Source: a virus. Taken from it: a stretch of DNA of 64,000 nt. Where the stretch lies: positions 1 to 64,000 of IMG/VR virus record IMGVR_UViG_3300045988_182793; one strand, given 5' to 3'. Each line of letters opens with the position of its first letter. The stretch's first letter is position 1. Made by a program: the position numbers and the translations under genes. The notes under the pieces are model-generated. The model was not told the origin of the DNA, did not search any database, and saw only the letters and a list, made by a program, of their open reading frames with translations. Shown piece by piece: positions 11,381 through 58,696 of this stretch.

Positions 11381-11658
11381 CTCAAAAGCGCGGTTTTGTC
11401 CGCGCAGCTGCTCCAAAAGACAGCCTCCACGCGGCGAGCAGCGGGAACATGCTGGTCGGAAGCGGCACGGCCGTCAGCTACCAGTGCCACTCGATGGATG
11501 AGGCGGTCGATATGGTCGCCGCCTTGTACAATGGCAGAAAAAACAGAAGCAGCGCAAGCATAACCATCCTGCAAAAATATATGCCGTTCATCTTTTTGGG
11601 TGGACGGCTTTTTGTTTTGTGAATCCAGCGATTCAGTGGCGAAGCGAGCCGATTTTAC

Positions 11659-11710
11659 CAGCAGTTTGATATTCTGCGGCATGATTTCCAGCAGTTTGAT
11701 ACTCTGTGGG
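11659..11710 (+). promoter_or_regulatory. two direct repeats CCAGCAGTTTGATA(T/C)TCTG(C/T)GG (operator-like) immediately upstream of promoter copy 4
   Basis: third copy CAGCACTTTGATATTCTGCGG at 19543-19563 in the same position relative to another promoter. Confidence 0.55.
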
Positions 11711-11712
11711 CA

Positions 11713-11748
11713 GTTGCACAGCCGTGCAAATTGCATACAATGGGAATT
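11713..11748 (+). promoter_or_regulatory. copy 4 (variant) of conserved promoter motif (TTGCACAGCCGTGCAAATTGCATACAAT)
   Basis: consensus match with GTGCAAAT variant. Confidence 0.5.
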
Positions 11749-14299: not shown

Positions 14300-14335
14300 G
14301 TTGCCCATTTGTGCGAATTGCAGACAATCAGAAAT
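14300..14335 (+). promoter_or_regulatory. copy 5 of conserved promoter motif (TTTGTGCGAATTGCAGACAAT)
   Basis: consensus match. Confidence 0.6.
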
Positions 14336-14411
14336 AAAGCGTAAAGCAAAGAAGCTGAGTACCATCTCAAAATTTGCAAGCAAAAAGTTGATTGAGCGAA
14401 ATTGGAATATC

Positions 14412-14684
14412 ATGAAAGACTACGGCAACGGCTATTCCATTGAGGAGCTTGCCGCAAAATACAGGTTGAGCGTCCGTACATGCTATCGAGCGTTAGACGA
14501 CGCGAAACAGAAGGCCAGAATTCAGTTGGCGCAGGTAGAGGATGCCAGAAAAGCTGAAATCCTTGCGGCATACAAGAACAGTGTCCCTCTCAAGGAAATG
14601 ATTGCGAAATTCAACGTGGCAGGTCAACAACCCCGCCTAAACCGGTTCGCCGGTTATAGACGGGGCTTGCGGGGCAACCCGTAA
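14412..14684 (+). CDS. small HTH-repeat regulator, C-terminus replaced by IS left-end sequence
   Basis: first unit DYGNGYSIEELAAKYRLSVRTCYRAL matches the repeat unit of genes 51988-53981; second unit cut where IS hairpin begins (~14633). Confidence 0.55.
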   Translation: MKDYGNGYSIEELAAKYRLSVRTCYRALDDAKQKARIQLAQVEDARKAEILAAYKNSVPLKEMIAKFNVAGQQPRLNRFAGYRRGLRGNP

Positions 14685-14989
14685 GCCCGGTTGATTAGCC
14701 TCAGTGAACGGTAACTTCGGTTGCTGCGAACTCCGTTATGCATTTGATGAGCAATCATCTTCATAATATAGGCACCCCGATATGCTCCACAAGTGTCGGG
14801 CTTTGCGGGCAGTGTATGTATCAATGGCGCAAGCCGTTGATATGTATTACGTTAAAAATCTCTAAGGGTAGGAGATGTGCGGCTGCCATGCCGAAAGGCT
14901 AAAACAGTGCATAACATTGGCGAAGTGGACCACAGGGCGCAACCCCTGACTTATAGTTTCATTACTATTTTACGAAAGGAGTACCTTGC
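14630..14989 (+). ncRNA. candidate omega-RNA of IscB (5' of iscB, spanning IS left end)
   Basis: ~300 nt non-coding, GC-rich with multiple stem-loops, in the position where IscB omega-RNAs are encoded (established for IscB family). Confidence 0.45.
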
Positions 14990-16387
14990 ATGAGCACTTG
15001 CGTTTGCGTTCTCAGCAACAGTGGTGAACGCTTAATGCCTACCTTCCGTCTTGGCAAGGTGCGCCATCTTCTGAAAGACGGAAAGGCTAAAATCGTTAAG
15101 CATCACCCGTTTACCATCCAGCTGCTGTATGACAGCAAAACGAACACGCAGCCTATTGAAATCTGCGAGGATGTGGGCTACAACTACATCGGCATCAGTG
15201 TGAAAAGTCAATCTCACGAGTATGTATCTGCTCAATATGATACATTACAGGACGAGAAAGCCTGCCACGACAGTTGTCGTAAGTTGCGCCGTACACGCAG
15301 AAACAGACTGCGTTACCGTAAACCGCGCTTCGATAACCGCAAGCGCGGCGAAGGTTGGCTTGCTCCTTCTTTGAGGCATAAGAAAGAACTCAATGTCAAC
15401 GTTGTCAAGATGTATTGTGCAGTAATGCCCATTACTCATGCAACAGTTGAGGTTGGTTCTTTCGACACAATGCTTGTAAAAGCAATTCAGGAAGGAAAAG
15501 CCATTCCTGAGGGAGCAGACTATCAAAAAGGTCCTCGCTACAATTTGGCAACCTTGCGTGAGGCAGTGTTCTACCGTGATAATTACACCTGCCAAGTTTG
15601 TGGACGCAAAGTCGCGGATGGTGCCATTTTACATATGCACCACATGTTCTACTGGAAAGGTCGTCACGGCGACAGCCTGAACGAACTTCTAACGGTATGC
15701 GAAAAGTGCCATACACCAGCTAACCATCAAAAAGGCGGTAAGCTTTATGGCTTCGGAGAAAATGTAAAGTTTGCCGACCTTTCCGGTGCGGCTTTTATGA
15801 ACACCGTTAGGTGGCAAATTGTCAATGAACTCTATGCTGCTTTTGGAAAAGATTTTGTCACCGTCACTTATGGCGCAATGACAAAAGAAAAGCGTATCGC
15901 ACTTCGACTTGAAAAAAGCCATAATAACGACGCGTATGCAATGGGCGAGTTTCATCCAAACTGCCGCTGTACGTTTGAACATTATGAAAAGGTAAGGCGT
16001 AATAATCGCATCCTTGAAAAGTTTTATGATTCTCGCTACATTGACATTCGTACAGGAGAAATAGCTACTGGAAAAGAACTCTTCAACGGTAGAATTAACC
16101 GTAACCACAAAAAGGATTCGGAAAATTTGCACAGATACCGTGGCAAGAGGACATACGCAGGGCATCGCGCTCTATTACGCAAAAAGGTAAACCTTAATCC
16201 GGGTGATTTAGTCTCTCTCAACGGAGAAGTTCTCGTTGTGCATAGCACTCATACCAATAAAAAGGGTGCTGTAAATGTAGAATTCAAAACACCCGGAAAA
16301 AGCGGTCAAAAATCTGCAAGCCTTAAAAAACTTAAAATTGTAAAAGCAGCAGATTCCATGCATTCTGCATGGGAAAAAATATCTTAA
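14990..16387 (+). CDS. iscB: IscB RNA-guided nuclease (PLMP, RuvC-I/II/III, RRXRR bridge helix, HNH)
   Basis: N-term VLSNSGERLMPT...GKAKIVKHHPFTIQLLY; ICEDVG (RuvC-I); RRNRLRYRKPRFDNRKRGEGW; CQVCGRK...HMHH...CEKCH (HNH); SHNNDAY (RuvC-III). Confidence 0.85.
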   Translation: MSTCVCVLSNSGERLMPTFRLGKVRHLLKDGKAKIVKHHPFTIQLLYDSKTNTQPIEICEDVGYNYIGISVKSQSHEYVSAQYDTLQDEKACHDSCRKLRRTRRNRLRYRKPRFDNRKRGEGWLAPSLRHKKELNVNVVKMYCAVMPITHATVEVGSFDTMLVKAIQEGKAIPEGADYQKGPRYNLATLREAVFYRDNYTCQVCGRKVADGAILHMHHMFYWKGRHGDSLNELLTVCEKCHTPANHQKGGKLYGFGENVKFADLSGAAFMNTVRWQIVNELYAAFGKDFVTVTYGAMTKEKRIALRLEKSHNNDAYAMGEFHPNCRCTFEHYEKVRRNNRILEKFYDSRYIDIRTGEIATGKELFNGRINRNHKKDSENLHRYRGKRTYAGHRALLRKKVNLNPGDLVSLNGEVLVVHSTHTNKKGAVNVEFKTPGKSGQKSASLKKLKIVKAADSMHSAWEKIS

Positions 16388-19464: not shown

Positions 19465-19599
19465 AAAAAGTCAGCAGCCATAAGCAAGAGGCAGGGCCCT
19501 GTGTTTCATGGTTCCAGAACGTCTTCCCACCTGAACTTTAACAGCACTTTGATATTCTGCGGGTATTGACAAACAGCCAAAAAGGTGCTTGGGTCAAAA

Positions 19600-32820: not shown

Positions 32821-32884
32821 ATAATTGATTTTTACACCTCCGATGTTACGGCATCGGGGGTTTTGTTTTTGGGAGGATACGGAG

Positions 32885-33931
32885 ATGGCAAAGAACGATA
32901 ACCTGCATAAGGCAAAGGACGCAAAAAACGACGAGTTCTACACCAGAATCGAGGATGTCGCAGAGGAATTGCGGCACTACAAAAAGCATTTCGCAGGCAA
33001 GGTCGTATTCTGCAACTGTGATGACCCGACATGGTCTGCTTTCTGGCGGTATTTCCACCTGAACTTCGCCGAACTTGGTCTAAAGAAGCTGATTTCCACG
33101 CACTATGACCGCACCGAGCCCACCTACAAGATGGAGTATGAGGGTGGGGATGATAATGATGTGGAAGTCGGTGTAAAAACCCCGCTGGAAGGCAACGGCG
33201 ATTTCCGGAGCAAGGAATGCCTTGACTTGCTGGATGAGTGCGATATCGTGGTAACGAATCCGCCGTGGTCAATGTTCAGAGAATATGTCTCGCTCTTAGT
33301 GGAGCACAAAAAGCAGTTTGTTATCATTGGCAATAAGAACTCCATTACATACAAAGAATTTTTCCCGCTTTTGAAGGACAATCATGTTTGGATTGGCTAC
33401 ATGTCCCCGTCTGAATTCGATACGCCGTCTGGAATGACAAAGAAAGTCGCCGGTCTTGGGCGTTGGTTCACCAACCTCGACATCCAAAAGCGCCACGAAA
33501 AGCTGATTCTCTGGCAGCGGTACTATGACGATGACGGGAATCCTCTGCCGGATGCGGATGAGCGCTACCCCCACTACGATAATTACGACGCCATCAATGT
33601 GGACAGGGTTGCGGATATCCCGGTGGATTACAAGGGCGTTATGGGTGTGCCGATTACGTTCTTGGATAAGTATAATCCGAAAGAATTTGAAATTTTAGGC
33701 TATACAGGCGGTTTGGGATGGAATAGCCAAAACGATGTAAAAACCACAAAAGAATATTTGGAATGTAAGCAGCACAACCCAGACGGTAGTATTACAAGTG
33801 GGGGCAAAGTCAATACTGGCGCTGCATTGTGCTTTAGTGTAATTCCTGCACAAAGATACTATACGGCATCAAATTGCAGCGGGTATTTACTCAGAACATA
33901 CGGACGAATTCTTGTTTGCAAGACGCAATGA
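32885..33931 (+). CDS. EcoRI-family adenine-N6 DNA methyltransferase
   Basis: N-term MAKNDNLHKAKDAKNDEFYT parallels M.EcoRI N-terminus; motif IV VVTNPPWS. Confidence 0.8.
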   Translation: MAKNDNLHKAKDAKNDEFYTRIEDVAEELRHYKKHFAGKVVFCNCDDPTWSAFWRYFHLNFAELGLKKLISTHYDRTEPTYKMEYEGGDDNDVEVGVKTPLEGNGDFRSKECLDLLDECDIVVTNPPWSMFREYVSLLVEHKKQFVIIGNKNSITYKEFFPLLKDNHVWIGYMSPSEFDTPSGMTKKVAGLGRWFTNLDIQKRHEKLILWQRYYDDDGNPLPDADERYPHYDNYDAINVDRVADIPVDYKGVMGVPITFLDKYNPKEFEILGYTGGLGWNSQNDVKTTKEYLECKQHNPDGSITSGGKVNTGAALCFSVIPAQRYYTASNCSGYLLRTYGRILVCKTQ

Positions 33932-34755
33932 AAGGGAAAAATGGAATGGATATAAAATGGGAAATTGCCTTTTATTTAATTGAAGCAAAAAAGGCTGTCG
34001 ATTCTTTATGGTATATATCAAACCATGTCAGCGAATTATATGATGTCAGGCAATTATGCAACGATAGACGAAGTCAGTATTACATTAACACCTGTGCCGT
34101 CTTAGATAAAACTGTGTGTGATGGTAAAGGAAAGAAAAAGGAATTAACGCAAAACGACAATGTTATTGCGCACATCTATTACGAAAGAGATAAGCACTAC
34201 GCTCACAAAGATAGTGATTATAAACAAAACTATCCGTGGACAAATTTGGAACAAGAAGCGTTTGCATTACAAGAGGAATTGCGCCACATTTTAGAAAAAT
34301 GTAAGGATTATCTTCCACAAGTGCTTACACTCGACTTTGTATGTTATGACAGCGTCCAATATCGATATATCAATAAAATTGGCAAAAGTGATGAAGAAAA
34401 AATCAAAGAAGAAAAACATCCTTTTTATAACAATCCGTTCCAATTGAATGCAAAGCCGATAAGAAAGAAACCTATATATGATATTGAGGCTATTAAAAGT
34501 ATCCCTGATAATAAACATAATGAGTATTGTGTTGTCATAGAAAGCGGTTTGACGTTTGAAGAAGATTTACAAAATAGGCAAGATGCTTTAATCAAGTTGA
34601 ATATGCTGTGCGGCAAAAATCTTTGGTGCAGAAAGAATGAATCGATGTGGAATGAATGTCTTAGATTACGGGAATTAGGGATATTTGACGCCTTTGGAAG
34701 ACTAAATTGCAGAAGAATTATAGAAGAAATAGAGAAAGGAAACAACATCTTATGA
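33928..34755 (+). CDS. hypothetical protein, AT-rich, translationally coupled between MTase and DUF262-HNH
   Basis: ATGA overlaps at both ends (33928/33931 and 34752/34755); low GC. Confidence 0.5.
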   Translation: MKGKNGMDIKWEIAFYLIEAKKAVDSLWYISNHVSELYDVRQLCNDRRSQYYINTCAVLDKTVCDGKGKKKELTQNDNVIAHIYYERDKHYAHKDSDYKQNYPWTNLEQEAFALQEELRHILEKCKDYLPQVLTLDFVCYDSVQYRYINKIGKSDEEKIKEEKHPFYNNPFQLNAKPIRKKPIYDIEAIKSIPDNKHNEYCVVIESGLTFEEDLQNRQDALIKLNMLCGKNLWCRKNESMWNECLRLRELGIFDAFGRLNCRRIIEEIEKGNNIL

Positions 34756-35888
34756 AAATTACAGAAACCAAAATCAAGGTATCCGACCTCGTAGAGAACT
34801 ATTCGAACGATGGAGACGGCGGCGTATACGGTTACAACAATCGGCTCACGATTAGGCCGAGCTACCAAAGAAATTTCTGCTTCTCCGATAAACAGCGTGC
34901 AGCCGTCATTGATTCAGTGATGAACGGATTTCCATTGAACCTTATGTACTGGTCTAAGACCGGTCCGGATTCCTACGAGGTTCTCGATGGTCAGCAGCGG
35001 ACAATTTCCATTGCGCAGTATGTCAACAAAGACTACCCCGTCAAAATCAACGGCAATGACAAGTTCTTCCAGAACCTGACAGACGAGGAAAAGCGGACGA
35101 TACTGGACTACGAGTTGACCGTGAATATCTGTGAGGGCTCCGAAGCCGAGAAACTGGCATGGTTCAAGCGCATCAACATCGCTGGAGAAGTTCTGACTCC
35201 GCAAGAGCTGCTGAACGCTACCTATACAGGTCCGTGGCTGGCTGATGCAAAGAACTACTTATCAAAGCGCAACTGTGTGGCCGCGAAGATGGCTGATGGT
35301 TACTTGAAAGGGAACCCTATTCGGCAGGAGTTGCTGGAAAAGGCACTGGCGTGGATTGCTGACCGTGATGGTCTGGAATCCGGGCAGATGTACATGGCGG
35401 TTCACCAGCATGACGAGGACGCCAATGACCTCTGGCTTTACTTCCAGTCGGTAATCAACTGGGCAAAAATGCTGTTCCCGACTAAGCGGAAGGGAATTAC
35501 GGATGCACAGGCATGGGGACTGCTCTACAACCAATATCATTCAAAGCAGTACAATAGCAACGCTTTGGAAACGGACATTAAGAAACTCGTACTGGATGAT
35601 GATGTAACTAAGAAGGCAGGCATCATCCCGTTCATCCTCTCTGACCGTATTTGGCGTGATGAAAAGCACCTGTCCCTTCGTGCGTTTACTGAATCTCAGA
35701 AGCTTCGCGCCTATGAGCGGCAGGGTCACAAGTGCCCCTTGTGCGTTGCAAATGGCATCAACACCGAGTATGCCTTTGAGGATATGGAAGGTGACCACAT
35801 CATTCCTTGGAGCAAGGGCGGGCATACCACAGACAATAACCTGCAGATGCTGTGCAAGAAGTGCAATGCGGCAAAGTCGGATAAATAA
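34752..35888 (+). CDS. DUF262 (ParB-like DGQQR) + C-terminal HNH nuclease (GmrSD-like)
   Basis: LDGQQRTISIAQ; C-term GDHIIPWSKGGHTTDNNLQMLCKKCNAAK. Confidence 0.8.
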   Translation: MKITETKIKVSDLVENYSNDGDGGVYGYNNRLTIRPSYQRNFCFSDKQRAAVIDSVMNGFPLNLMYWSKTGPDSYEVLDGQQRTISIAQYVNKDYPVKINGNDKFFQNLTDEEKRTILDYELTVNICEGSEAEKLAWFKRINIAGEVLTPQELLNATYTGPWLADAKNYLSKRNCVAAKMADGYLKGNPIRQELLEKALAWIADRDGLESGQMYMAVHQHDEDANDLWLYFQSVINWAKMLFPTKRKGITDAQAWGLLYNQYHSKQYNSNALETDIKKLVLDDDVTKKAGIIPFILSDRIWRDEKHLSLRAFTESQKLRAYERQGHKCPLCVANGINTEYAFEDMEGDHIIPWSKGGHTTDNNLQMLCKKCNAAKSDK

Positions 35889-50729: not shown

Positions 50730-50850
50730 TACTCCTAGAACGAAACTTTGATTCGGGTTCTTTCAGCAAAAAGCGTAGGAACCAAAATCATACGAAATGA
50801 TTGTGTTGACACATAAAAACAAGTATAATATATACAAGGAAGTGATAATA

Positions 50851-51303
50851 ATGGTTCTGTATCATGGCAGCGATGTAATAGTCCGCAACCCTGAGGTCAG
50901 AAAAACAAGGTACGCCAAAGATTTTTCATGGGGATTCTATTGCACTAGCAACTACGAACAAGCCGCTCGCTGGTCAAAAAAAGGCAGGTCTCGTGGTATT
51001 GTCAACGTGTTTGAATATACAGAATCTCCTATGCTAAATATTAAGAAATTCCCCGAAATGAGTGATGAGTGGCTTGATTTTATTGCTATATGTCGCTCGG
51101 GCAAACATCATGACTATGATATTGTGGAAGGACCCATGGCGGATGACACCATTTGGAACTACGTCAACGACTTTCTAAGCGGTGATATTAGCCGTGAAGC
51201 TTTTTGGGCGTTGGCAAAATTCAAGCATCCCACGCATCAAATCAGCTTTCACACGGAAGTCGCTTTGAAATGTCTCTCTTTTAAGGAGGCGATTGAAGTA
51301 TGA
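50851..51303 (+). CDS. DUF3990-family protein
   Basis: MVLYHGSDVIVRNPE...DFSWGFYCT N-terminal signature. Confidence 0.55.
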   Translation: MVLYHGSDVIVRNPEVRKTRYAKDFSWGFYCTSNYEQAARWSKKGRSRGIVNVFEYTESPMLNIKKFPEMSDEWLDFIAICRSGKHHDYDIVEGPMADDTIWNYVNDFLSGDISREAFWALAKFKHPTHQISFHTEVALKCLSFKEAIEV

Positions 51304-51749
51304 CTGAAACTGCAACCTACAGCAAAAACGATGTCTTTTATACCTGCAGCCTGATTGAATATATCGGCCGCGTTACGAGGAATCATCGCAAGGATGTGGT
51401 TTCTGCTCTTGGCACAAACGGAGTCAAGGCAATTCTCGACTCAGCGGATGTGTTTCACTGCCAGAGCTTTGAGCAATCTGCCGATGAAATTTGTGAGCTT
51501 TTTCCTGTGCCGGAAGGAACGTATGATACGGTGTCTAACTGCCATTACAAGGTTCCATCTTATACAGATATCGGAAAAGTGTACCAGCGCATCATCTTTG
51601 ACTGTACTAGCACTCCTAGTGTCCAGGATGTAATTGATGTATTTTCCTCGTTCATTAGCGATGACATCTCAGATTTTAATACTGCAACTTACTATTGTAA
51701 TCCGAGCTATTTGTACCACTCATACAAGGCCGGAAAACTACTGGATTGA
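51300..51749 (+). CDS. DUF3791-family protein (partner of DUF3990)
   Basis: conserved pairing and ATGA overlap. Confidence 0.45.
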   Translation: MTETATYSKNDVFYTCSLIEYIGRVTRNHRKDVVSALGTNGVKAILDSADVFHCQSFEQSADEICELFPVPEGTYDTVSNCHYKVPSYTDIGKVYQRIIFDCTSTPSVQDVIDVFSSFISDDISDFNTATYYCNPSYLYHSYKAGKLLD

Positions 51750-51839
51750 TTTTCAAAAGCAATAGCAATCAAGACCACTGCCCCAAAAAGGGTGGTGGTC
51801 TTATTTTTTTGCACAACACTTACCATAAATTACCAGAAA

Positions 51840-51875
51840 GAAAAACATTGTGCATCTGTGCGAATTGCATATAAT
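51840..51875 (+). promoter_or_regulatory. copy 13 of conserved promoter motif (TCTGTGCGAATTGCATATAAT)
   Basis: consensus match. Confidence 0.6.
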
Positions 51876-51987
51876 ACAAAATATAGAACGAAAGGCATCA
51901 AAAAACATCGTTGGTCGGGCAAAACCCGACCGAAAGGCTAGGGCGGGCTCAGTTTTGAACCTGCTCTTTCTTTTTATCGGAGGCTTT

Positions 51988-52515
51988 ATGTCAAACAAAG
52001 AAGAACGCATGAACCGCAATAAAAGCATCATCGAAGATTACAAAAATGGAAAGCCGATTTTAGAAATCGCGAGGGAATATAATCTTTCAGAAACGATGTG
52101 CTACAAGATTCTAAAAGGTACGCAGGAGCCGCCTCTCTATTTTGAAAAAAAGAGGAAGAGACTTACCACTCGAAATGAGCAAATTGTTAAACAGTATAAA
52201 GGCGGTATGACGGCCAGAGAATTGGGCAAGATGTACGGCATTTCCATGCAGCGTATTTATGCAATCTTGCATTCGAGCGGAGAGTACGAAAGCCAAAAAT
52301 ACAATCATATTGAAACGGCTCTCAAAAAAGAGAAAAAGATGCGGAACCAAACTTTTCTTGATGCTTACAAGAAAAATCCTCGAAAATCGATTATCGAGTT
52401 GAGCAGGGAGGTAAATATCAGCCCTTCACTAGGTTATCTTATCCTTCATCAAAATGGGATTTACCAGTATAACGTAAAAGCCAGAGCTAAGGAGAATAGC
52501 GAAAATGCCGATTAA
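51988..52515 (+). CDS. tandem-HTH-repeat protein (3 units)
   Basis: units IIEDYKNGKPILEIAREYNLSETMCYKIL / IVKQYKGGMTARELGKMYGISMQRIYAIL / ... Confidence 0.65.
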   Translation: MSNKEERMNRNKSIIEDYKNGKPILEIAREYNLSETMCYKILKGTQEPPLYFEKKRKRLTTRNEQIVKQYKGGMTARELGKMYGISMQRIYAILHSSGEYESQKYNHIETALKKEKKMRNQTFLDAYKKNPRKSIIELSREVNISPSLGYLILHQNGIYQYNVKARAKENSENAD

Positions 52516-53023
52516 CAAGATTACCCACGTGTGTCTAACTCATGACAAAGTCAGGGCGCGAAATGAAAAGATGCTGGAGGATGCCAAGAACGGTATGTCC
52601 CAGGAACAGCTGGCCGAAAAGTATCAAATCTGTGTTTCTACTGTCCGATATAGTCTGAAGGACTTTTACGAAGAACAGGCCCGGCAGAGGAAAGCAAAGA
52701 AGAAAGCCTGGCAAACCCAGATGATTCATGAATATGAGATGGGCGCAAAATCTCCAGAGCTTCAGGAAAAATACGGCATCAGTGGAACGCTCTTTTATCG
52801 GATTCTTCATGCGCACGGAAAGAATGGCCGACAAATCCACAGCCAAAACCGTATCGAGACTGGCAAGAAAAGAAACGCCGAGATGGTCAGGAAATACAAA
52901 AACGGCGTTTCTGTCAAAGAGCTTGCGGAAGAATACGGGCTCAAAAAGGGAAGCGTATATCGCGCCATGAAGCGGTATAGTCCAGGCCCAGGGAAAAGTA
53001 AAAGTTGTCAAAGTGAGGAATAA
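52505..53023 (+). CDS. tandem-HTH-repeat protein (3 units)
   Basis: MLEDAKNGMSQEQLAEKYQICVSTVRYSL; MIHEYEMGAKSPELQEKYGISGTLFYRIL; MVRKYKNGVSVKELAEEYGLKKGSVYRAM. Confidence 0.65.
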   Translation: MPINKITHVCLTHDKVRARNEKMLEDAKNGMSQEQLAEKYQICVSTVRYSLKDFYEEQARQRKAKKKAWQTQMIHEYEMGAKSPELQEKYGISGTLFYRILHAHGKNGRQIHSQNRIETGKKRNAEMVRKYKNGVSVKELAEEYGLKKGSVYRAMKRYSPGPGKSKSCQSEE

Positions 53024-53027
53024 TTGC

Positions 53028-53981
53028 ATGGCTGCATCAAAGAAAGATGTTGCGAAGCAGCAGGTCAAAGAAGACCGAGAAAAAGTCCGGGAAATGTATC
53101 TTTCTGGCAAAACTGTCAAGGAAATCGCCAAGGAAACGTATTTTTCAAGCTCTTATTGCTATGCCATGGTGAGAGACCTAGCAAAAGAAAAGAATCTTGC
53201 AAAGAGAGCAAAAAGAGCACCTCTCGACGAAGCTATGATTCAAGATGCGAAAGCCGGGATGACGGTTGCTGAAATCGCAAAGAAGCATGGCGTGACCTAT
53301 CAGCAGTGCTACTATACTGTTTCTGAATACGCTCAAGCTACGATTAAGAAGAACAAGAAAAAGCAGTCTGCTGCCACGAAAGTTCGCAATGCGGCTATGT
53401 TAGAAGATGCGAAAGCCGGAATGACTGATAAGGAAATCGCCAAAAAATACTTTTTGTCTCGAAGCAGTGTCCGTACCGTCCTTGCAGGGCATTTACATAC
53501 AAATTCCAAAAAGTTGGATGAAAGGCGCAAGGCGATTCTTGCGGATTATGAGACAGGAACGTCCTCAAAAGACATCTGTGAGAAATACGGTATTTCAAAA
53601 TCCACTCTTTACAAGGACATGCGCCAAGTTGGAAAAACCTGTCAGGAATACTATCACAAGGCGCTGAAAGACAAGACCAATCGAAGGAATTCCGATATTC
53701 GAAGCAAAATCGAAAGAGGGGTCTCGGTCAGCACTATTGCCAAGGAATACGGAATCTCTAAAGCGGCGATTTATGAAACGTTTCATCAGGAAAATGTCAG
53801 AGCTGGAATTTTACAGAAACGCGGCCGTCCGCGAAAAAACACGGAACGTAATGCACTGATTGCTAAACGCCACAGGGAAGGCGAGAAGGTGCAGGCGCTT
53901 GCCACTGAATATAATCTCTCTGTTTCGACGGTAAACACTATTTGCAGTAGAAACAAAAATCAGAATATAACCTCATATTAA
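53028..53981 (+). CDS. tandem-HTH-repeat protein (6 units)
   Basis: six consecutive ~50-aa units of the same pattern x(Y/A)xxGxxxxEIAKxYGxSxSxxYxxL. Confidence 0.65.
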   Translation: MAASKKDVAKQQVKEDREKVREMYLSGKTVKEIAKETYFSSSYCYAMVRDLAKEKNLAKRAKRAPLDEAMIQDAKAGMTVAEIAKKHGVTYQQCYYTVSEYAQATIKKNKKKQSAATKVRNAAMLEDAKAGMTDKEIAKKYFLSRSSVRTVLAGHLHTNSKKLDERRKAILADYETGTSSKDICEKYGISKSTLYKDMRQVGKTCQEYYHKALKDKTNRRNSDIRSKIERGVSVSTIAKEYGISKAAIYETFHQENVRAGILQKRGRPRKNTERNALIAKRHREGEKVQALATEYNLSVSTVNTICSRNKNQNITSY

Positions 53982-54026
53982 CAGGCTGCCATTTGGCGGC
54001 CTATTTCTTTTTTAGGAGGAAATGAA

Positions 54027-54941
54027 ATGACAGACGACGTACGTAATTTAATTCGATTTGTGGTGGATGGCGATATTCGAAACGCGCAGACTCAGTGCCG
54101 AATCATGCTTGAAAAGAATGTACCCGAAAAGGACGCCAGGTTCAAAGAAAACGAACTCAGAAAGTTGAATCTTCTGAAACCGGAACTGATTCAGCTGCCC
54201 GCCAACCTGGAAAGCCTCTTGATTGCGGAGGATGCCACGAATTTCCCTGAGAGCCGGTTCCTGCTCCGCGAGGAGGAAGAAACAGTCATCAACAAGCTCT
54301 TAGCCACCAGAAAAGCAGCTTTAGCCATCAAGGAGCTTGGCATCCACTATACTTGCTCTTTGCTTTTGACGGGCCTTCCTGGTGTTGGTAAGACTGAATT
54401 GGCCCGCTACATTGCACACAAGGCGAATTTACCGTTTGTTTTCCTGAAATTCTCTGGCCTTGTCAATTCTGCTCTTGGCCGGACACAGCAGAACATCGGC
54501 AGAGTGTTCGATTACGCAAAGCGCACGCCTTGTGTTCTTTGTGTTGATGAAATTGATGCCATCGGAATGTGCCGTGGCAGCCGCGATGATGTCGCTGAAA
54601 TGAGCCGCGTCACCATCGCATTGATGCAGGAACTTGACCGGCTCCCGAATGACGTCATTCTCATTGGCACTACAAACCGCGTCGATAACCTTGACGAAGC
54701 CCTCATTCGCCGATTCACTTTCAAACACCGCGTCAAGCCTTTAGGCGACGATGACATGAAAGAACTGTGCAAGAAGTTCCTTGCTTCGGCAGACTATCCC
54801 TTCACGGAATCCGAACTCGACGAACTCTGCCATTCGCTGCGTGAACAGCGGACTGCCAGCGCCGTTGTCAATGCCTGTACAGAACGTATCGTTGCACATA
54901 TCGTATCGCAGCTGCCTGAAAATTCGGCAGATGCCGTGTAA
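54027..54941 (+). CDS. AAA+ ATPase
   Basis: Walker A LTGLPGVGKT, Walker B VLCVDEIDAIG, sensor IGTTNR. Confidence 0.75.
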   Translation: MTDDVRNLIRFVVDGDIRNAQTQCRIMLEKNVPEKDARFKENELRKLNLLKPELIQLPANLESLLIAEDATNFPESRFLLREEEETVINKLLATRKAALAIKELGIHYTCSLLLTGLPGVGKTELARYIAHKANLPFVFLKFSGLVNSALGRTQQNIGRVFDYAKRTPCVLCVDEIDAIGMCRGSRDDVAEMSRVTIALMQELDRLPNDVILIGTTNRVDNLDEALIRRFTFKHRVKPLGDDDMKELCKKFLASADYPFTESELDELCHSLREQRTASAVVNACTERIVAHIVSQLPENSADAV

Positions 54942-54945
54942 AAGT

Positions 54946-55644
54946 ATGATAGCCTGGGAAGAAAGCCCTCGTCAGTTTAAGATGTCCAAGCAACTCGATG
55001 AGGGAAAATTCGGAGAAGACTTGGCTCGCAAATTCCTTAACGACCCGATTATCAAAGTGAATCATGGCATTAGCCATTACGATGACGTGACTCAGGATAA
55101 ATCATATCAAGACAAAGATACCGATTTCATCGTCTGGAAGAAGAATGGTAAGACCTTTGGCCTGGAAGCGAAAGTGGACAGTCACAATACCGGAAATTTC
55201 TACCTGGAAACCTCGGTGGACTACTTCTCCATGGTGCCTGACGCTCTGAACGAACAACGGGTGGCGCGGCGGTATCGGGATGGCATCGACCCTTTATGGC
55301 ACACCCCGGGCTGGGTATACAGGAGTGGTGCGGACCAGATTCTCTATTATTTCAGAACCACGCAGCTGCTTTACATTTTCTCCCGCGTTGATGTCTGGTT
55401 CTATGCTGAAAAGCTGATGCGCGGTGGAATCCATCTCGACCCCGGAATCAGAAAGCCAAAAATGTATTCTGCCGAAAATATCAGTGAACGCAATGGTTCC
55501 ACTCTCTTCTTTGCCAACGGCTTATGCGTGAATGCAGAGCAGACATACAAGGCTTTAGGAGCGCAAAAAAGAGTCATTAAATACCAGGTTGAGAACCCGG
55601 ATTCAGACGTTCCAACGTTCAGTTTTTGCCCTTTCAAATTATGA
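54946..55644 (+). CDS. PD-(D/E)xK nuclease-fold protein (putative)
   Basis: DTDFIVW...GLEAKVD (D-x-D...E-x-K). Confidence 0.45.
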   Translation: MIAWEESPRQFKMSKQLDEGKFGEDLARKFLNDPIIKVNHGISHYDDVTQDKSYQDKDTDFIVWKKNGKTFGLEAKVDSHNTGNFYLETSVDYFSMVPDALNEQRVARRYRDGIDPLWHTPGWVYRSGADQILYYFRTTQLLYIFSRVDVWFYAEKLMRGGIHLDPGIRKPKMYSAENISERNGSTLFFANGLCVNAEQTYKALGAQKRVIKYQVENPDSDVPTFSFCPFKL

Positions 55645-55729
55645 ATTTTTCGCTAACAATCGTTAGAAAATCACACTTCAGTCTGACGGAAGAGTATAAT
55701 TAAAGTATGGAAAGAGAGGACAAAAAATC

Positions 55730-56158
55730 ATGAACCAAATCAACGTTGTGACGATTGGAAAACTCATTGAAGCACATCGAGACGGTGACGAGCAGAAGTT
55801 CAAAGCATATGTCGATTTTATTGTCAAAGCCTACGAAGAGCAGGAGAATGACCGTGCCGCACGAATCATTCGAAGCAGCTATACGGGTGACTACGGTGAG
55901 CAGGGGAAAGTTGTTCTGGATGAAGCAGTCAAACAGACTGTGCATTATGAGACAGGTTGGTACGAACCCGAAATCTTAGGCTCTGGTGGTTCCTATCGCG
56001 GAGTTACAAAAACAAGCTCAGAGGAAGAAGCTCTGCAACAGCTACAAAAGCACACGGTGAACTATGCACAACGTATCACTGTATATAAGAAAGACGGCAA
56101 AACCGTAAAACGAGAAGTCGCTGAGTACGACCAGTGGGAAAAGAAGTGGATGAGTTAA
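55730..56158 (+). CDS. hypothetical protein (142 aa)
   Basis: ORF. Confidence 0.45.
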   Translation: MNQINVVTIGKLIEAHRDGDEQKFKAYVDFIVKAYEEQENDRAARIIRSSYTGDYGEQGKVVLDEAVKQTVHYETGWYEPEILGSGGSYRGVTKTSSEEEALQQLQKHTVNYAQRITVYKKDGKTVKREVAEYDQWEKKWMS

Positions 56159-56160
56159 TC

Positions 56161-56646
56161 ATGAAGCACAAAATCTCGGAAACCGGCGCTCGGATGCTTA
56201 AATATCAAGAGCAGCTTGCCGACGAATACAAGTACAAGCCCATCCCACGTACCTTTTTCAAGGATGTGCGGGCAGAATTTGAAGAAACTTTGCCGGAATG
56301 GTGCAATATGTCCGGCGATACGACCAAACTCGAAACCAGAAGCGGCACGGTCATTGCCAGCGGGTATAACCGAATCGTGATTGGCGACTACGGCGCATTC
56401 GTTGAGTTTTCGCGTGCCCAAGCAAATGCACGTCATTTGAAAATCAAAGAGGGGCAGAGCTATCGTATCGAAGACCCGCGCTATGCCGAACATGTGAAAT
56501 ATCTTTGGCTCACAGCGGACGATAACTCTGACGTGAAAGTATACGACCAAAAACGCTTGGTTGAGTACGCTGACTACAAGCCGGGGATGCTGTATGTCAG
56601 CGTGTACGAGGTGTTTCCAGCGGAAACTGATGCCGGATTATCATGA
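56161..56646 (+). CDS. hypothetical protein (161 aa)
   Basis: ATGA overlap. Confidence 0.45.
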   Translation: MKHKISETGARMLKYQEQLADEYKYKPIPRTFFKDVRAEFEETLPEWCNMSGDTTKLETRSGTVIASGYNRIVIGDYGAFVEFSRAQANARHLKIKEGQSYRIEDPRYAEHVKYLWLTADDNSDVKVYDQKRLVEYADYKPGMLYVSVYEVFPAETDAGLS

Positions 56647-56856
56647 CGAGCACTGTGCTTTCGACAGCAAGCCAATCAAGCATACACAGTGGGTGCGTTT
56701 TCTTGGGAAGGACTAACCATAGGGGCAGGAAGATTCCATTGCCGACCTGTACGCGAAAAGTGGCGCTGTGGTTTCCATGGTAGGTTCGGCTAAAGATTTG
56801 CTGACTTTCCTGCAATCTGCCGGAACCACAAGGCATTTTTGATGCGTTAGCCCCAA

Positions 56857-56951: not shown

Positions 56952-57196
56952 CAATTGTTCTCAGGAAGAGGAACGGCTCCTGAGACATCAAGGTTTTCCT
57001 TTCCCCAATCTTGGTCGCATGGCTTCATTTGAGCTGACACAGGTGAAGCGTGAAAATCATCCGTTTCATAGTAATATCCTTCCTTTCTTTGGCGCGGGTA
57101 ACTCCGCGCCAGCCGTCCAAGCAAACAGCCTCCACGCGGCGGACGGTGGACAACAGATGTTTCCGTGTTCCGGGCATCTGGCTAATGTTTGTATTT

Positions 57197-57272
57197 GCTG
57201 GTTTAGCTCAGCTGGTAGAGCAACTGATTTGTAATCAGTCGGTCATCGGTTCAAGTCCGATTTCCAGCTCCA
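57197..57272 (+). tRNA. tRNA-Thr (anticodon TGT); acceptor has two U-U mispairs
   Basis: cloverleaf traced by hand; D and T arms canonical. Confidence 0.6.
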
Positions 57273-58620: not shown

Positions 58621-58696
58621 GGAGGGATAGCTTAGCTGGATAAAGCACCTGCCGCAAAGCAGGGTATCGATGGTTCGAGGCCATCTCCCTTCTCCA
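58621..58696 (+). tRNA. tRNA-like with perfect 5-bp anticodon stem but 6-nt loop CGCAAA (Cys-GCA-like?)
   Basis: acceptor, D, T arms and CCA fit; anticodon loop non-canonical. Confidence 0.45.

What the first reader, a model, noticed from the sequence alone, without database searches (positions are those of the whole stretch)
51988..55644. Three consecutive genes composed solely of tandem ~50-aa HTH repeats (3+3+6 units) followed by AAA+ ATPase and PD-(D/E)xK protein
Each unit follows x-Y-K/E-x-G-x-S/T-x-x-E-I-A-K-x-Y-G-I-S-x-S-T-V-Y-x-x-L. Twelve units sit in three overlapping ORFs, with further units in the 14412 regulator (cut by the IscB IS) and in the minus-strand gene at 63243-63770. 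A poly-HTH array could multimerise on the repeated GTGCGAAT promoter cores. The downstream AAA+ ATPase and nuclease-fold protein, linked by overlapping or adjacent stops and starts, suggest a functional module rather than simple regulators.
Basis: seen in the sequence. Interest (0 to 1): 0.75.

Follow-up and report, generated by a model that had tools for sequence, protein, structure and literature searches.

The report
Tandem helix-turn-helix array genes in phage
A gut jumbo phage carries three adjacent genes made only of 3, 3 and 6 tandem DNA-binding helix-turn-helix units, which are most likely phage gene regulators, while the ATPase and nuclease next door look like a separate defence-type gene pair.

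Summary
Genes A (51988-52515), B (52505-53023) and C (53028-53981) consist only of 3, 3 and 6 three-helix HTH units. The period is 46-57 aa and the linkers are rich in K and R.

The units are old and divergent (12-35% identity). All three genes are under purifying selection and are separate, translationally coupled genes. They are not fragments of one frameshifted gene. The unit is a Mor / sigma-region-4 / Hin-type HTH without Mor's dimerisation domain. The three-unit block is the ancestral module. The closest characterised architecture is archaeal Cbp1/Cbp2.

Such HTH-array proteins are widespread and uncharacterised in metagenomes, with 851 representative clusters.

The AAA+ protein is an IetA-like classic-clade ATPase. 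The last protein has a PD-(D/E)xK fold with an invariant D...E-x-K motif.

The idea of one functional module is not supported:
- A terminator-like hairpin separates C from the ATPase.
- Relatives have other genes inserted between these genes.
- Divergence jumps at the boundary between C and the ATPase.
- Distant homologues of either part lack the other.

The operon is driven by a conserved GTGCGAA-spacer promoter, followed by a terminator in the leader. Seven of 14 such promoters share this layout.

Most likely function: sequence-specific DNA-binding regulators of phage transcription.

The parts
51771..51802 (+). Intrinsic terminator (13-bp stem plus T-run) ending the upstream PDC-M10 gene pair. 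It isolates the HTH operon as its own transcription unit.
51848..51875 (+). Promoter of the HTH operon: TTGTGC - ATC TGTGCGAAT TGCA - TATAAT. It belongs to the phage's conserved promoter class with a GTGCGAA element in the 16-nt spacer.
   Evidence: The same promoter sits upstream of gene A in all relatives.
51876..51987 (+). Structured leader. Hairpin 1 is at about 51913-51931. Hairpin 2 is at 51940-51967 and is followed by the T-run 51968-51977, which makes it terminator-like. It lies directly before the ribosome-binding site GGAGG (51979-51983).
   Evidence: Fold z = -3.58. Terminator-like call. An equivalent hairpin plus U-run is present in L069 and L080 with different stem sequences.
51988..52515 (+). 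Gene A, 175 aa, pI 9.7. It has three HTH units (51997-52140, 52153-52296, 52324-52470). It is the only array gene kept in all three related clades.
52505..53023 (+). Gene B, 172 aa, pI 9.7. It has three HTH units (52541-52684, 52691-52834, 52853-52996). It overlaps A by 11 nt and has its own AAGGAG ribosome-binding site. It aligns in register with A.
53028..53981 (+). Gene C, 317 aa, pI 9.8, net charge +31. It has six HTH units (53055-53198, 53205-53348, 53367-53510, 53505-53648, 53667-53810, 53829-53972). An AT-hook-like KRGRPRK precedes unit 6. Copy number varies (6, 5) through recombination between units 2 and 3.
   Evidence: (D18)
53983..54002 (+). Terminator-like hairpin plus T-run between C and the ATPase gene. 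There is no room for a promoter before ATG 54027.
   Evidence: An analogous hairpin lies upstream of the ATPase gene in L069.
54027..54941 (+). IetA-like classic-clade AAA+ ATPase, 304 aa. Walker A is GLPGVGKT, Walker B is VDEID, and the arginine fingers are RR. The pore-loop position reads SALG, with no aromatic residue.
54946..55644 (+). PD-(D/E)xK-fold protein, 232 aa from ATG 54946 or 220 aa from ATG 54982. Numbered from ATG 54982, the catalytic-type motif is D46, D48 ... E62-A-K64. The family is restricted to this phage group.
14301..14684 (+). Truncated fourth paralogue. It retains unit 1 and half of unit 2 of a three-unit HTH-array gene and is cut by the IscB element (IscB ORF 14990-16387). 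It has its own GTGCGAAT promoter at 14301-14328.
63243..63770 (-). Minus-strand ORF with two weaker HTH units at its N-terminus (63657-63758, 63519-63611). Its 3' third is antisense to two tRNA-Ser genes.

Best explanation
Genes A, B and C are paralogous, strongly basic DNA-binding proteins. They are built only from tandem three-helix HTH units of the Mor / sigma-region-4 / Hin type. The units are joined by flexible K/R-rich linkers, one of which carries an AT-hook-like RGRP motif.

The ancestral module is a three-unit block. A, B and the IscB-cut paralogue at 14.3 kb each have one block. C has two.

By analogy with Cbp1, Pax and Myb, each recognition helix reads one stretch of major groove while the linkers track the DNA between them. 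One block would then cover roughly 25-30 bp, and C about twice that (inferred).

The three genes are translated together from one early-type promoter, through a leader that contains a terminator-like hairpin. The most likely role is sequence-specific control of the jumbo phage's own transcription programme, as repressors or activators of promoter classes (inferred).

The downstream IetA-like ATPase and PD-(D/E)xK nuclease are a separate, defence-type gene pair. They probably receive attenuated read-through transcription and are not a mechanistic partner of the arrays.
For: **Shown**
- There are 12 units, each matching the unit HMM at 56-71 bits.
- Pfam matches are to HTH_23, HTH_28, HTH_7, Sigma70_r4 and the Mor C-terminal region (profile positions 57-101 only). 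PHROG families 836 and 532, 'late transcriptional activator', also match.
- pI is 9.7-9.8 and net charge is +13, +15 and +31. The linkers are basic, and the RGRPRK motif is invariant.
- The AF2 model of C has six 3-helix units at pLDDT 70-82, linkers below 50 and pTM 0.24, which means independent units on flexible linkers.
- The best local PDB matches are Cbp2 (2lvs, probability 0.99), AraC-type regulators, Tc3 and serine-recombinase HTHs.
- The NCBIfam model HTH_Cbp1 aligns across all three units of A (residues 12-147 against model positions 6-125 of 135, E 6e-6). For C the E-value is 4e-14.
- A aligns in register with B (hhalign 98.7%) and with C units 1-3 (99.5%).
- dN/dS is 0.08-0.39.
- Gene boundaries are the same in more than 60 contigs. 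Orthologues of A and B are also separate genes in the 64% clade.
- In another phage, a Mor-plus-HTH-array gene lies between a sigma-factor gene, a Mor gene and the holin gene. In a second element, a 7-unit array gene is followed by a small Mor-like gene.
- The promoter, leader and terminators are documented.

**From the literature**
- The three HTHs of Cbp1 lie 5' to 3' along a 25-bp repeat (PMC10883916).
- The basic linker of Cbp2 is needed for high-affinity binding (PMC3597662).
Against: - No DNA target has been identified. The window has no tandem DNA repeat array of matching period.
- The Mor dimerisation domain is absent, so the Mor activation mechanism cannot simply be transferred.
- Recognition helices differ greatly between units, and gene-level dN/dS is higher than for the neighbouring genes. 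Both are also compatible with a fast-evolving host-directed or counter-defence role.
- The genes sit in a region rich in defence-type genes: PDC-M10, an IetA-like ATPase, a type II R-M system and IscB.
- RNA binding cannot be excluded for such basic proteins.
Confidence: 0.5

Rival explanations
1. The arrays are architectural, low-specificity DNA-coating proteins. They would compact, organise or shield the large phage genome, comparable to the Cbp1-Cren7 chromatin-like structures, rather than act as gene-specific regulators.
For: - Net charge is very high (+13, +15, +31) and the linkers are K/R-rich, one with an AT-hook-like motif.
- The AF2 model shows flexible, independent units.
- There are several co-expressed paralogues. 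The terminator after C would let the arrays be made in excess over the downstream genes.
- Unit number is tolerant to change, with 6- and 5-unit forms.
- Cbp1 forms chromatin-like structures (PMC10883916).
Against: - Every unit has a distinct recognition helix that is conserved among orthologues. This is what specific readers show.
- Relatives manage with a single three-unit gene.
- The proteins resemble sequence-specific HTH families: Mor, Hin and sigma region 4.
Confidence: 0.15
2. The HTH arrays, the AAA+ ATPase and the nuclease form one functional module, for example a DNA-sensing or DNA-targeting defence or exclusion system in which the arrays guide or regulate the ATPase-nuclease pair.
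For: - All five genes are on the same strand, and no promoter is visible between C and the ATPase gene, so co-transcription by read-through is likely.
- The gene order is kept in three clades.
- The ATPase is IetA-like: PADLOC 188 bits, E 7e-56.
- The surrounding genes are defence-type.
- PADLOC homing-endonuclease and CARF-HTH models weakly match the arrays.
Against: - There is a terminator-like hairpin between C and the ATPase gene.
- Lipoprotein and zinc-finger genes are inserted between the parts in relatives.
- The number of array genes varies from 1 to 3 while the ATPase and nuclease stay constant.
- dS jumps at the boundary, which indicates independent recombination histories.
- Distant ATPase homologues lack the arrays and the nuclease.
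- Distant array proteins lack an ATPase or nuclease neighbour.
- The apparent C-ATPase fusions in public data are deletions that truncate both partners.
Confidence: 0.1
3. The arrays are host-directed takeover or counter-defence factors. They would bind repeated or extended sites in the host chromosome, such as host promoters or CRISPR repeats (as Cbp1 does), to shut off host or defence transcription.
For: - The operon has an early-type promoter and lies in an accessory, defence-rich region.
- There is detectable similarity to the Cbp1 CRISPR-repeat-binding model.
- Paralogue number varies by lineage and unit number varies, as expected for arms-race genes.
- Gene-level dN/dS is higher than for the neighbours.
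Against: - The Cbp1 similarity is far below the family cut-off (26-53 bits against 140). It may only reflect the shared array architecture.
- The host is unknown, so no target could be looked for.
- Related array genes in other phages sit beside Mor and sigma-factor genes near late genes.
Confidence: 0.1
4. The three ORFs are pieces of one broken gene, or leftover DNA-binding modules of a decayed homing endonuclease, with no present function.
For: - PHROG and PADLOC homing-endonuclease and HNH families weakly match, because such enzymes carry HTH arrays.
- The best fold match of the neighbouring nuclease is a homing endonuclease.
Against: - Each gene has its own ribosome-binding site and start codon.
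- The boundaries are identical in more than 60 contigs and in the diverged clade.
- dN/dS is 0.08-0.39.
- Units are 12-35% identical, so they are old and maintained.
Confidence: 0.03

Closest known systems
Cbp1 / Cbp2, archaeal CRISPR DNA repeat-binding proteins (NCBIfam NF040595; PDB 2lvs)
   Same: - They are proteins made only of 2-3 tandem three-helix HTH domains that arose by duplication and are joined by basic flexible linkers.
- The HTHs line up 5' to 3' along a site of about 25 bp (PMC3597662, PMC10883916).
- Gene A aligns over all three units of the Cbp1 model.
- Cbp2 is the best PDB match by both sequence and local fold.
   Different: - Scores are far below the family cut-off (26-53 bits against 140).
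- The present genes are from a phage of a bacterial host, not from crenarchaeal chromosomes.
- Up to 6 units occur per protein, and there are 3-4 paralogues side by side.
- The target is unknown, and there is no CRISPR array nearby.
Mor / C family transcription activators of phage Mu (Pfam PF08765; PHROG 836 and 532)
   Same: - The HTH unit matches the C-terminal DNA-binding part of the Mor profile (positions 57-101 of 107) in all three proteins.
- They are phage-encoded.
- JGI names a homologue 'Mor family transcriptional regulator'.
- In other phages, array genes sit beside true Mor genes.
   Different: - The N-terminal dimerisation domain is absent from every unit.
- Arrays of 3-6 units replace the Mor dimer, so the way the site is recognised must differ.
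Eukaryotic tandem-HTH readers: Myb R1R2R3, the paired domain (Pax), and Pipsqueak with four 50-aa Psq repeats
   Same: - They have tandem HTH repeats of about 50 aa that read successive major-groove segments, with linkers contacting DNA. This rests on general knowledge and on PMC3597662 for Myb and Pax.
- Pfam HTH_psq and CENP-B_N weakly match the units.
   Different: - There is no evidence of common descent of the arrays.
- The eukaryotic proteins carry additional regulatory domains, whereas these phage proteins contain nothing but units and linkers.
IetAS defence / plasmid-stabilisation system (IetA ATPase plus IetS subtilase)
   Same: The AAA+ protein matches IetA models much better than other AAA families: PADLOC E 7e-56 and NCBIfam E 3e-50, against 3e-23 for PAN.
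   Different: - It is shorter (304 aa against about 370) and below the NCBIfam cut-off (171 bits against 510).
- There is no IetS protease. The following gene is a PD-(D/E)xK nuclease.
- A true phage IetAS pair (Paenibacillus phage Yyerffej) scores 316 and 201 bits.
Lambdoid Q-type antitermination (cis layout only)
   Same: - A conserved DNA element lies between -35 and -10.
- An intrinsic terminator lies 60-130 nt downstream in the leader at 7 of 14 promoters, including that of the HTH operon.
- Q needs a binding element between -35 and -10 and reads it with a sigma-R4-like HTH (PMC6606751).
   Different: - No Q homologue was found. Pfam Phage_antitermQ gives only E 0.058 on gene A.
- A sigma-dependent pause element was not demonstrated.
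- The arrays have no obvious RNAP-binding domain.

Membership tests
Mor/C family (PF08765) | C-terminal HTH matching the Mor profile | tested here: met
   Whole-protein E-values are 8e-10 (A), 5e-7 (B) and 3e-10 (C). The matched profile positions are 57-95 or 57-101 of 107.
Mor/C family (PF08765) | N-terminal dimerisation domain (profile positions about 1-56) in a single-HTH protein of about 100-140 aa | tested here: not met
   No match starts before profile position 57. The proteins are arrays of 3-6 HTHs with only 9-22-aa linkers between units.
Mor/C family (PF08765) | Activates sigma70-RNAP from a site overlapping -35 | not testable with these tools
   This needs in vitro transcription or a reporter assay.
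Cbp1/Cbp2 (NF040595) | Protein consists only of 2-3 tandem HTH domains with basic linkers | tested here: met
Cbp1/Cbp2 (NF040595) | Sequence membership (curated cut-off 140 bits) | tested here: not met
   Scores are 26.3 (A), 21.4 (B) and 52.6 (C) bits. Against 2lvs, phmmer gives E 0.004.
Cbp1/Cbp2 (NF040595) | Binds CRISPR DNA repeats | not testable with these tools
   The host and its CRISPR arrays are unknown. No CRISPR-like array is present in the window.
IetAS system | IetA-type AAA+ ATPase | tested here: inconclusive
   PADLOC IetA gives 188 bits over residues 47-295 against model positions 64-305 of 374. NCBIfam gives 171 bits against a cut-off of 510. It is a homologue, not an equivalog.
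IetAS system | Adjacent IetS subtilisin-like protease | tested here: not met
   The downstream gene has no Pfam, PHROG or PADLOC match and has a PD-(D/E)xK fold. The IetS model does hit the control phage Yyerffej.
PD-(D/E)xK nuclease superfamily | Core alpha-beta-beta-beta-alpha-beta fold | tested here: met
PD-(D/E)xK nuclease superfamily | Catalytic D ... (D/E)-x-K motif | tested here: met
   D46, D48 and K64 are invariant, position 62 is E or D, and A63 is nearly invariant in 10 sequences that go down to 28% identity.
PD-(D/E)xK nuclease superfamily | Nuclease activity | not testable with these tools
   Needs biochemistry.
Lambdoid Q-type antitermination | Conserved factor-binding element between -35 and -10 | tested here: met
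   TGTGCGAA(T/C) lies at fixed spacing in 14 promoters, all on the + strand. That a protein binds it is only inferred.
Lambdoid Q-type antitermination | Intrinsic terminator downstream of the promoter, before the genes | tested here: met
   Seven of 14 promoters have a hairpin (-11.7 to -24 kcal/mol) plus a T-run 60-131 nt downstream. The same is seen in L069 and L080.
Lambdoid Q-type antitermination | -10-like pause element in the initial transcribed region | tested here: inconclusive
   The leaders are A/T-rich, with TAnAnA- or TGTACGA-type words at about +6 to +14 in several cases. No statistical test was made.
Lambdoid Q-type antitermination | A Q-family protein | tested here: not met
   The only match is Pfam Phage_antitermQ at E 0.058 on gene A.

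The most novel reading that the evidence does not exclude
The three-unit HTH block is the trans-acting reader of the phage's own promoter class. One block would lie along the roughly 29-bp TTGc-N-TGTGCGAA-N-TAcAAT region. It would then either switch these promoters off, or act like Q and make RNA polymerase read through the terminators found in the leaders of 7 of 14 such promoters, including the operon's own, which has the weakest terminator. That would be a new kind of antiterminator or promoter-specific factor, built only from sigma-region-4-like HTH repeats, and a model for a large uncharacterised class of HTH-array proteins.
Probability: 0.12. Interest if true: 0.75.

Novelty: new variant of a known kind. 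Interest (0 to 1): 0.45.

Why it matters
Proteins built only of tandem HTH units are characterised in archaea (Cbp1/Cbp2) and, as domains, in eukaryotes (Myb, Pax, Pipsqueak). I found no study of them in bacteria or phages.

This search shows hundreds of representative clusters of such proteins, with up to about 25 units (my estimate by eye), in metagenomes. They occur in phages and other mobile elements.

This phage gives a compact test case. It has 3-4 paralogues with 3 or 6 units and natural copy-number variants. It also has a sharply defined promoter class with leader terminators that could be the target.

If the arrays read long composite sites, they would be a natural modular DNA-recognition scaffold. 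They would also be a handle on how gut jumbo phages time their gene expression.

Separately, an IetA-like ATPase paired with a nuclease instead of the usual protease is a candidate variant of a defence system whose mechanism is still unknown.

Tried and rejected
- **Frameshifted fragments of one gene.** Rejected: each gene has its own ribosome-binding site, the boundaries are conserved in more than 60 contigs and in a diverged clade, and selection is purifying.
- **Recent repeat expansion or assembly artefact.** Rejected: units are 12-35% identical in protein and 29-53% in DNA. Only C2 and C3 share a 53-nt stretch at 79%.
- **C-ATPase fusion proteins in public data as Rosetta-stone evidence.** Rejected: they are deletions that remove units 3-6 and the ATPase N-terminus, and they come from short contigs.
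- **Conservation of the HTH-ATPase-nuclease neighbourhood beyond close relatives.** Not found.
- **DNA repeat arrays in the window as candidate binding sites.** None has a fitting period. The only finds were a 26-nt box present twice at 11654/11684 and once at 19537.
- **Whole-chain fold search with the C model.** No significant hit, as expected for a model with pTM 0.24.
- **Nucleotide and protein searches of the annotated phage collection.** The 4.9-kb region (51800-56700) gave one nucleotide hit, in the ATPase gene. Gene A gave no protein hit.
- **Literature searches for tandem-, multi- or poly-HTH phage proteins.** Nothing relevant was found.
- **Rfam.** No known RNA family matches the operon leader.
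- **MuB-like or clamp-loader identity of the ATPase.** Rejected in favour of an IetA-like classic-clade AAA protein.

Full report
**Setting**

The window is an accessory region of a large phage from human gut metagenomes.
- It holds 18 tRNA genes.
- Near-identical and related IMG/VR contigs reach 389 kb.
- An HDV-like ribozyme of the Faecalibacterium prausnitzii type lies before one tRNA, which hints at the host.
- The region is rich in defence-type and mobile genes. These include SPFH and VWA proteins, a PLD nuclease, IscB, helicases, an EcoRI-type methylase with a type II restriction enzyme, and the candidate system PDC-M10 directly upstream of the finding.

**The observation**

The ORF listing and translation show three consecutive + strand genes.
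- A is 51988-52515 (175 aa).
- B is 52505-53023 (172 aa).
- C is 53028-53981 (317 aa from the ATG that has a GAGGA ribosome-binding site; public gene calls agree).

I cut out the 12 units by eye and aligned them. An HMM built from that alignment hits 12 places in the three genes at 56-71 bits.
- Elsewhere in the six-frame translation of the window it finds only one good unit (14379-14522) and two weak ones in 63243-63770 (-).
- The period is 46-57 aa.
- Units are only 12-35% identical to each other in protein and 29-53% in DNA. They are therefore old, not a recent expansion or an assembly artefact. The one exception is a 53-nt stretch shared at 79% by units C2 and C3 (family D18).

**Are they one broken gene?**

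No.
- A has GGAGG 4 nt before its ATG.
- B has AAGGAG and overlaps A by 11 nt.
- C has GAGGA and starts 4 nt after B's stop.
- The same three genes with 3+3+6 units occur in about 60 independent contigs. A few have 3+3+5 units or carry isolated stops or frameshifts.
- In a clade whose ATPase is 64% identical, A and B are again separate, overlapping genes.
- Pairwise dN/dS is 0.08-0.39 for A, B and C.

**What a unit is**

- Pfam gives HTH_23, HTH_28, HTH_7, Sigma70_r4 and Mor. The Mor matches cover only profile positions 57-101, which is the DNA-binding end. The Mor dimerisation domain is missing.
- PHROGs gives the Mor-like 'late transcriptional activator' families 836 and 532.
- NCBIfam gives 'CD3324 family' (C passes the cut-off) and, below cut-off, the Cbp1 CRISPR-repeat-binding model. 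That model aligns across all three units of A.
- AlphaFold2 models C as six three-helix units (pLDDT 70-82) joined by low-confidence linkers, with pTM 0.24. So the units are independent and no rigid solenoid is predicted.
- Foldseek finds no significant whole-chain match. The best local matches are Cbp2 (2lvs), AraC-type pairs, Tc3 and serine-recombinase HTHs. 2lvs is also the only PDB sequence hit.
- The proteins are very basic: pI 9.7-9.8 and net charge +13, +15 and +31.
- The linkers are K/R-rich. The linker before C6 carries an invariant KRGRPRK, which is an AT-hook-type motif.

**Evolution**

- Profile comparison aligns A with B in register over all three units (98.7%). It aligns A with units 1-3 of C (99.5%). 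The three-unit block is therefore the module, and C is a double block.
- A is present in all three related clades, B in two, and C only in the window's clade.
- A fourth three-unit paralogue lies at 14.3 kb. In the window it is cut inside unit 2 by an IscB element. Relatives without the insertion encode an intact three-unit protein.
- C shows natural copy-number variation. The 263-264-aa forms are recombinants between units 2 and 3.

**How common are such proteins?**

A full phmmer scan of 1.84 billion representatives with C gave 851 hits at E up to 1e-3 and 105 at E up to 1e-10. Many are unrelated proteins made of the same kind of unit. The unit counts below are my own estimates by eye.
- One has 342 aa and 7 units.
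- Two have about 630 aa and about 12 units.
- One has 1557 aa and about 25 units.

Their contexts were as follows.
- One gene (a Mor N-domain plus extra units) lies between a sigma-factor gene, a Mor gene and a holin gene.
- One is followed by a small Mor-like gene.
- One lies next to a transposase in a 3.8-Mb chromosome.
- None has an AAA+ or nuclease neighbour.

I found no paper on such phage or bacterial proteins.

The characterised analogues are archaeal Cbp1 and Cbp2.
- Cbp1 has three HTHs lying 5' to 3' on a 25-bp repeat.
- Cbp2 has two HTHs, and its basic linker is needed for affinity.
- The sources are PMC10883916 and PMC3597662.

**The neighbours**

The AAA+ protein:
- It has a classic-clade AAA domain, with best PDB matches to VCP/CDC48 D2.
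- It has intact Walker A, Walker B and arginine fingers.
- It fits IetA models far better than other AAA families (PADLOC E 7e-56, NCBIfam E 3e-50). It is shorter than IetA, falls below the curated cut-off, and has no IetS protease partner.

The last protein:
- It has no family match, and its homologues are confined to this phage group.
- D46, D48 and K64 are invariant, and position 62 is E or D.

**Is it one module?**

The evidence says no.
- A terminator-like hairpin and T-run lie between C and the ATPase gene.
- Relatives have a lipoprotein gene between the arrays and the ATPase. They also have a DUF4379 zinc-finger gene between the ATPase and the nuclease.
- dS jumps from 0.05-0.09 in B and C (up to 0.12 in A) to 0.5-0.6 in the ATPase and nuclease in the same genome pairs. 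This shows separate recombination histories.
- ATPase homologues at 38-54% identity in other gut phages lack both other parts.
- No promoter is visible before the ATPase gene, so it probably receives attenuated read-through. That is co-transcription, not proof of joint function.

**Expression**

The operon follows a strong terminator (51771-51802). It is driven by TTGTGC-N-TGTGCGAAT-N-TATAAT.
- This is one of 14 promoters in the window with the consensus TTGc.c-A.c-TGTGCGAAT-tgca-TACAAT. All 14 are on the + strand.
- The exact octamer occurs 10 times, against 2.7 expected.
- Seven of the 14 are followed, 60-131 nt downstream, by a hairpin plus T-run. In most cases this lies just before the ribosome-binding site of the first gene. 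The operon's own leader has the weakest one, at 51940-51977.
- The same promoter and a leader hairpin with a different stem sequence precede gene A in both diverged clades.
- This layout resembles the cis requirements of lambdoid Q antitermination (PMC6606751). No Q homologue was found, and the pause element is unproven.
- Each promoter carries a single GTGCGAA core and the cores are far apart. One three-unit block per promoter would fit in size, but this is untested.

**Conclusion**

The repeat observation is solid, and the architecture is unusual but not unique.
- Most likely (0.5), A, B and C are sequence-specific DNA-binding regulators of phage transcription. They would read long sites with strings of HTHs, as Cbp1 does.
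- Weaker alternatives are an architectural DNA-coating role, a host-directed role, or a role tied to the ATPase-nuclease pair.
- I rate this a new variant of a known kind, with moderate interest.

Noticed in passing
window 6747, 6914, 8799, 11714, 14301, 17190, 20339, 26243, 26766, 26872, 29013, 43359, 44676, 51848 (promoter starts, + strand): A sharply conserved promoter class, TTGc.c-A.c-TGTGCGAA(T/C)-N-TAcAAT, with the conserved element inside the spacer. Seven members are followed 60-131 nt downstream by a strong hairpin plus T-run, in most cases just before the first gene's ribosome-binding site. This 'promoter, short leader, terminator, gene' layout suggests regulated antitermination or short leader RNAs.
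   Followed up: partly
window 11654-11679, 11684-11709, 19537-19562: A 26-nt box, TTTaCCAGCAgTTTGATAtTCTGcGG, occurs twice 30 bp apart immediately upstream of the promoter at 11714. It occurs once immediately upstream of a TTGACA at about 19565. There are 3 matches against 0.13 expected, so it is a likely regulator-binding site.
   Followed up: partly
window 57112-57192: An HDV-like ribozyme (Rfam RF02682, the F. prausnitzii type; 46.6 bits against a gathering score of 44) lies directly upstream of tRNA-Thr (57197-57272). This hints at ribozyme-assisted tRNA processing and at a Faecalibacterium-like host.
   Followed up: no
window 50797-51303 and 51300-51749: A complete candidate defence pair, PDC-M10A (DUF3990, 257 bits) and PDC-M10B (185 bits), carried by the phage directly upstream of the HTH operon.
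   Followed up: partly
window 14645-16387: An IscB element (RRXRR plus HNH ORF at 14990-16387) is inserted inside unit 2 of a three-unit HTH-array gene. Three related contigs share the insertion. About 18 others have the intact gene.
   Followed up: yes
window 32825-33931 and 34707-35888: An EcoRI-type adenine methylase, and a GmrSD_N plus HNH protein that matches a PADLOC type II restriction-enzyme model at 428 bits. This looks like a phage-borne R-M system.
   Followed up: no
window 63243-63412 (-): The last 57 or so codons of the minus-strand two-HTH ORF (63243-63770) are antisense to two tRNA-Ser genes (63232-63321, 63325-63412). Either the ORF's true end is doubtful, or the tRNA genes were inserted into it.
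   Followed up: no
window 58621-58696: ARAGORN reports a tRNA with an irregular anticodon loop ('ca', amino acid undetermined) inside the tRNA cluster. Rfam's tRNA model does not list it at the gathering threshold.
   Followed up: no
window 53983-54941 boundary; loci L049, L052, L053, L056, L057: Synonymous divergence changes abruptly between the HTH genes and the ATPase-nuclease genes, and within the HTH cluster (A against B) in some pairs. This indicates frequent mosaic recombination in the region.
   Followed up: partly
proteins P0090, P0092, P0093, P0094 (short metagenome contigs): Several independent deletion variants join the first 2-3 units of C in frame to an N-terminally truncated ATPase. 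These are either real deletion mutants in gut populations or assembly artefacts at short repeats.
   Followed up: partly
proteins P0152, P0155, P0159, P0173 (metagenomes): Very long HTH-array proteins made of the same kind of unit: 1557 aa with about 25 units (my estimate), about 630 aa with about 12 units, and 1001 aa. All are of unknown function.
   Followed up: partly
L069 8875-9432; L080 8905-9645: In related phages, a protein made of 2-3 DUF4379 treble-clef zinc-finger repeats lies between the IetA-like ATPase and the nuclease. It is absent from the window.
   Followed up: no
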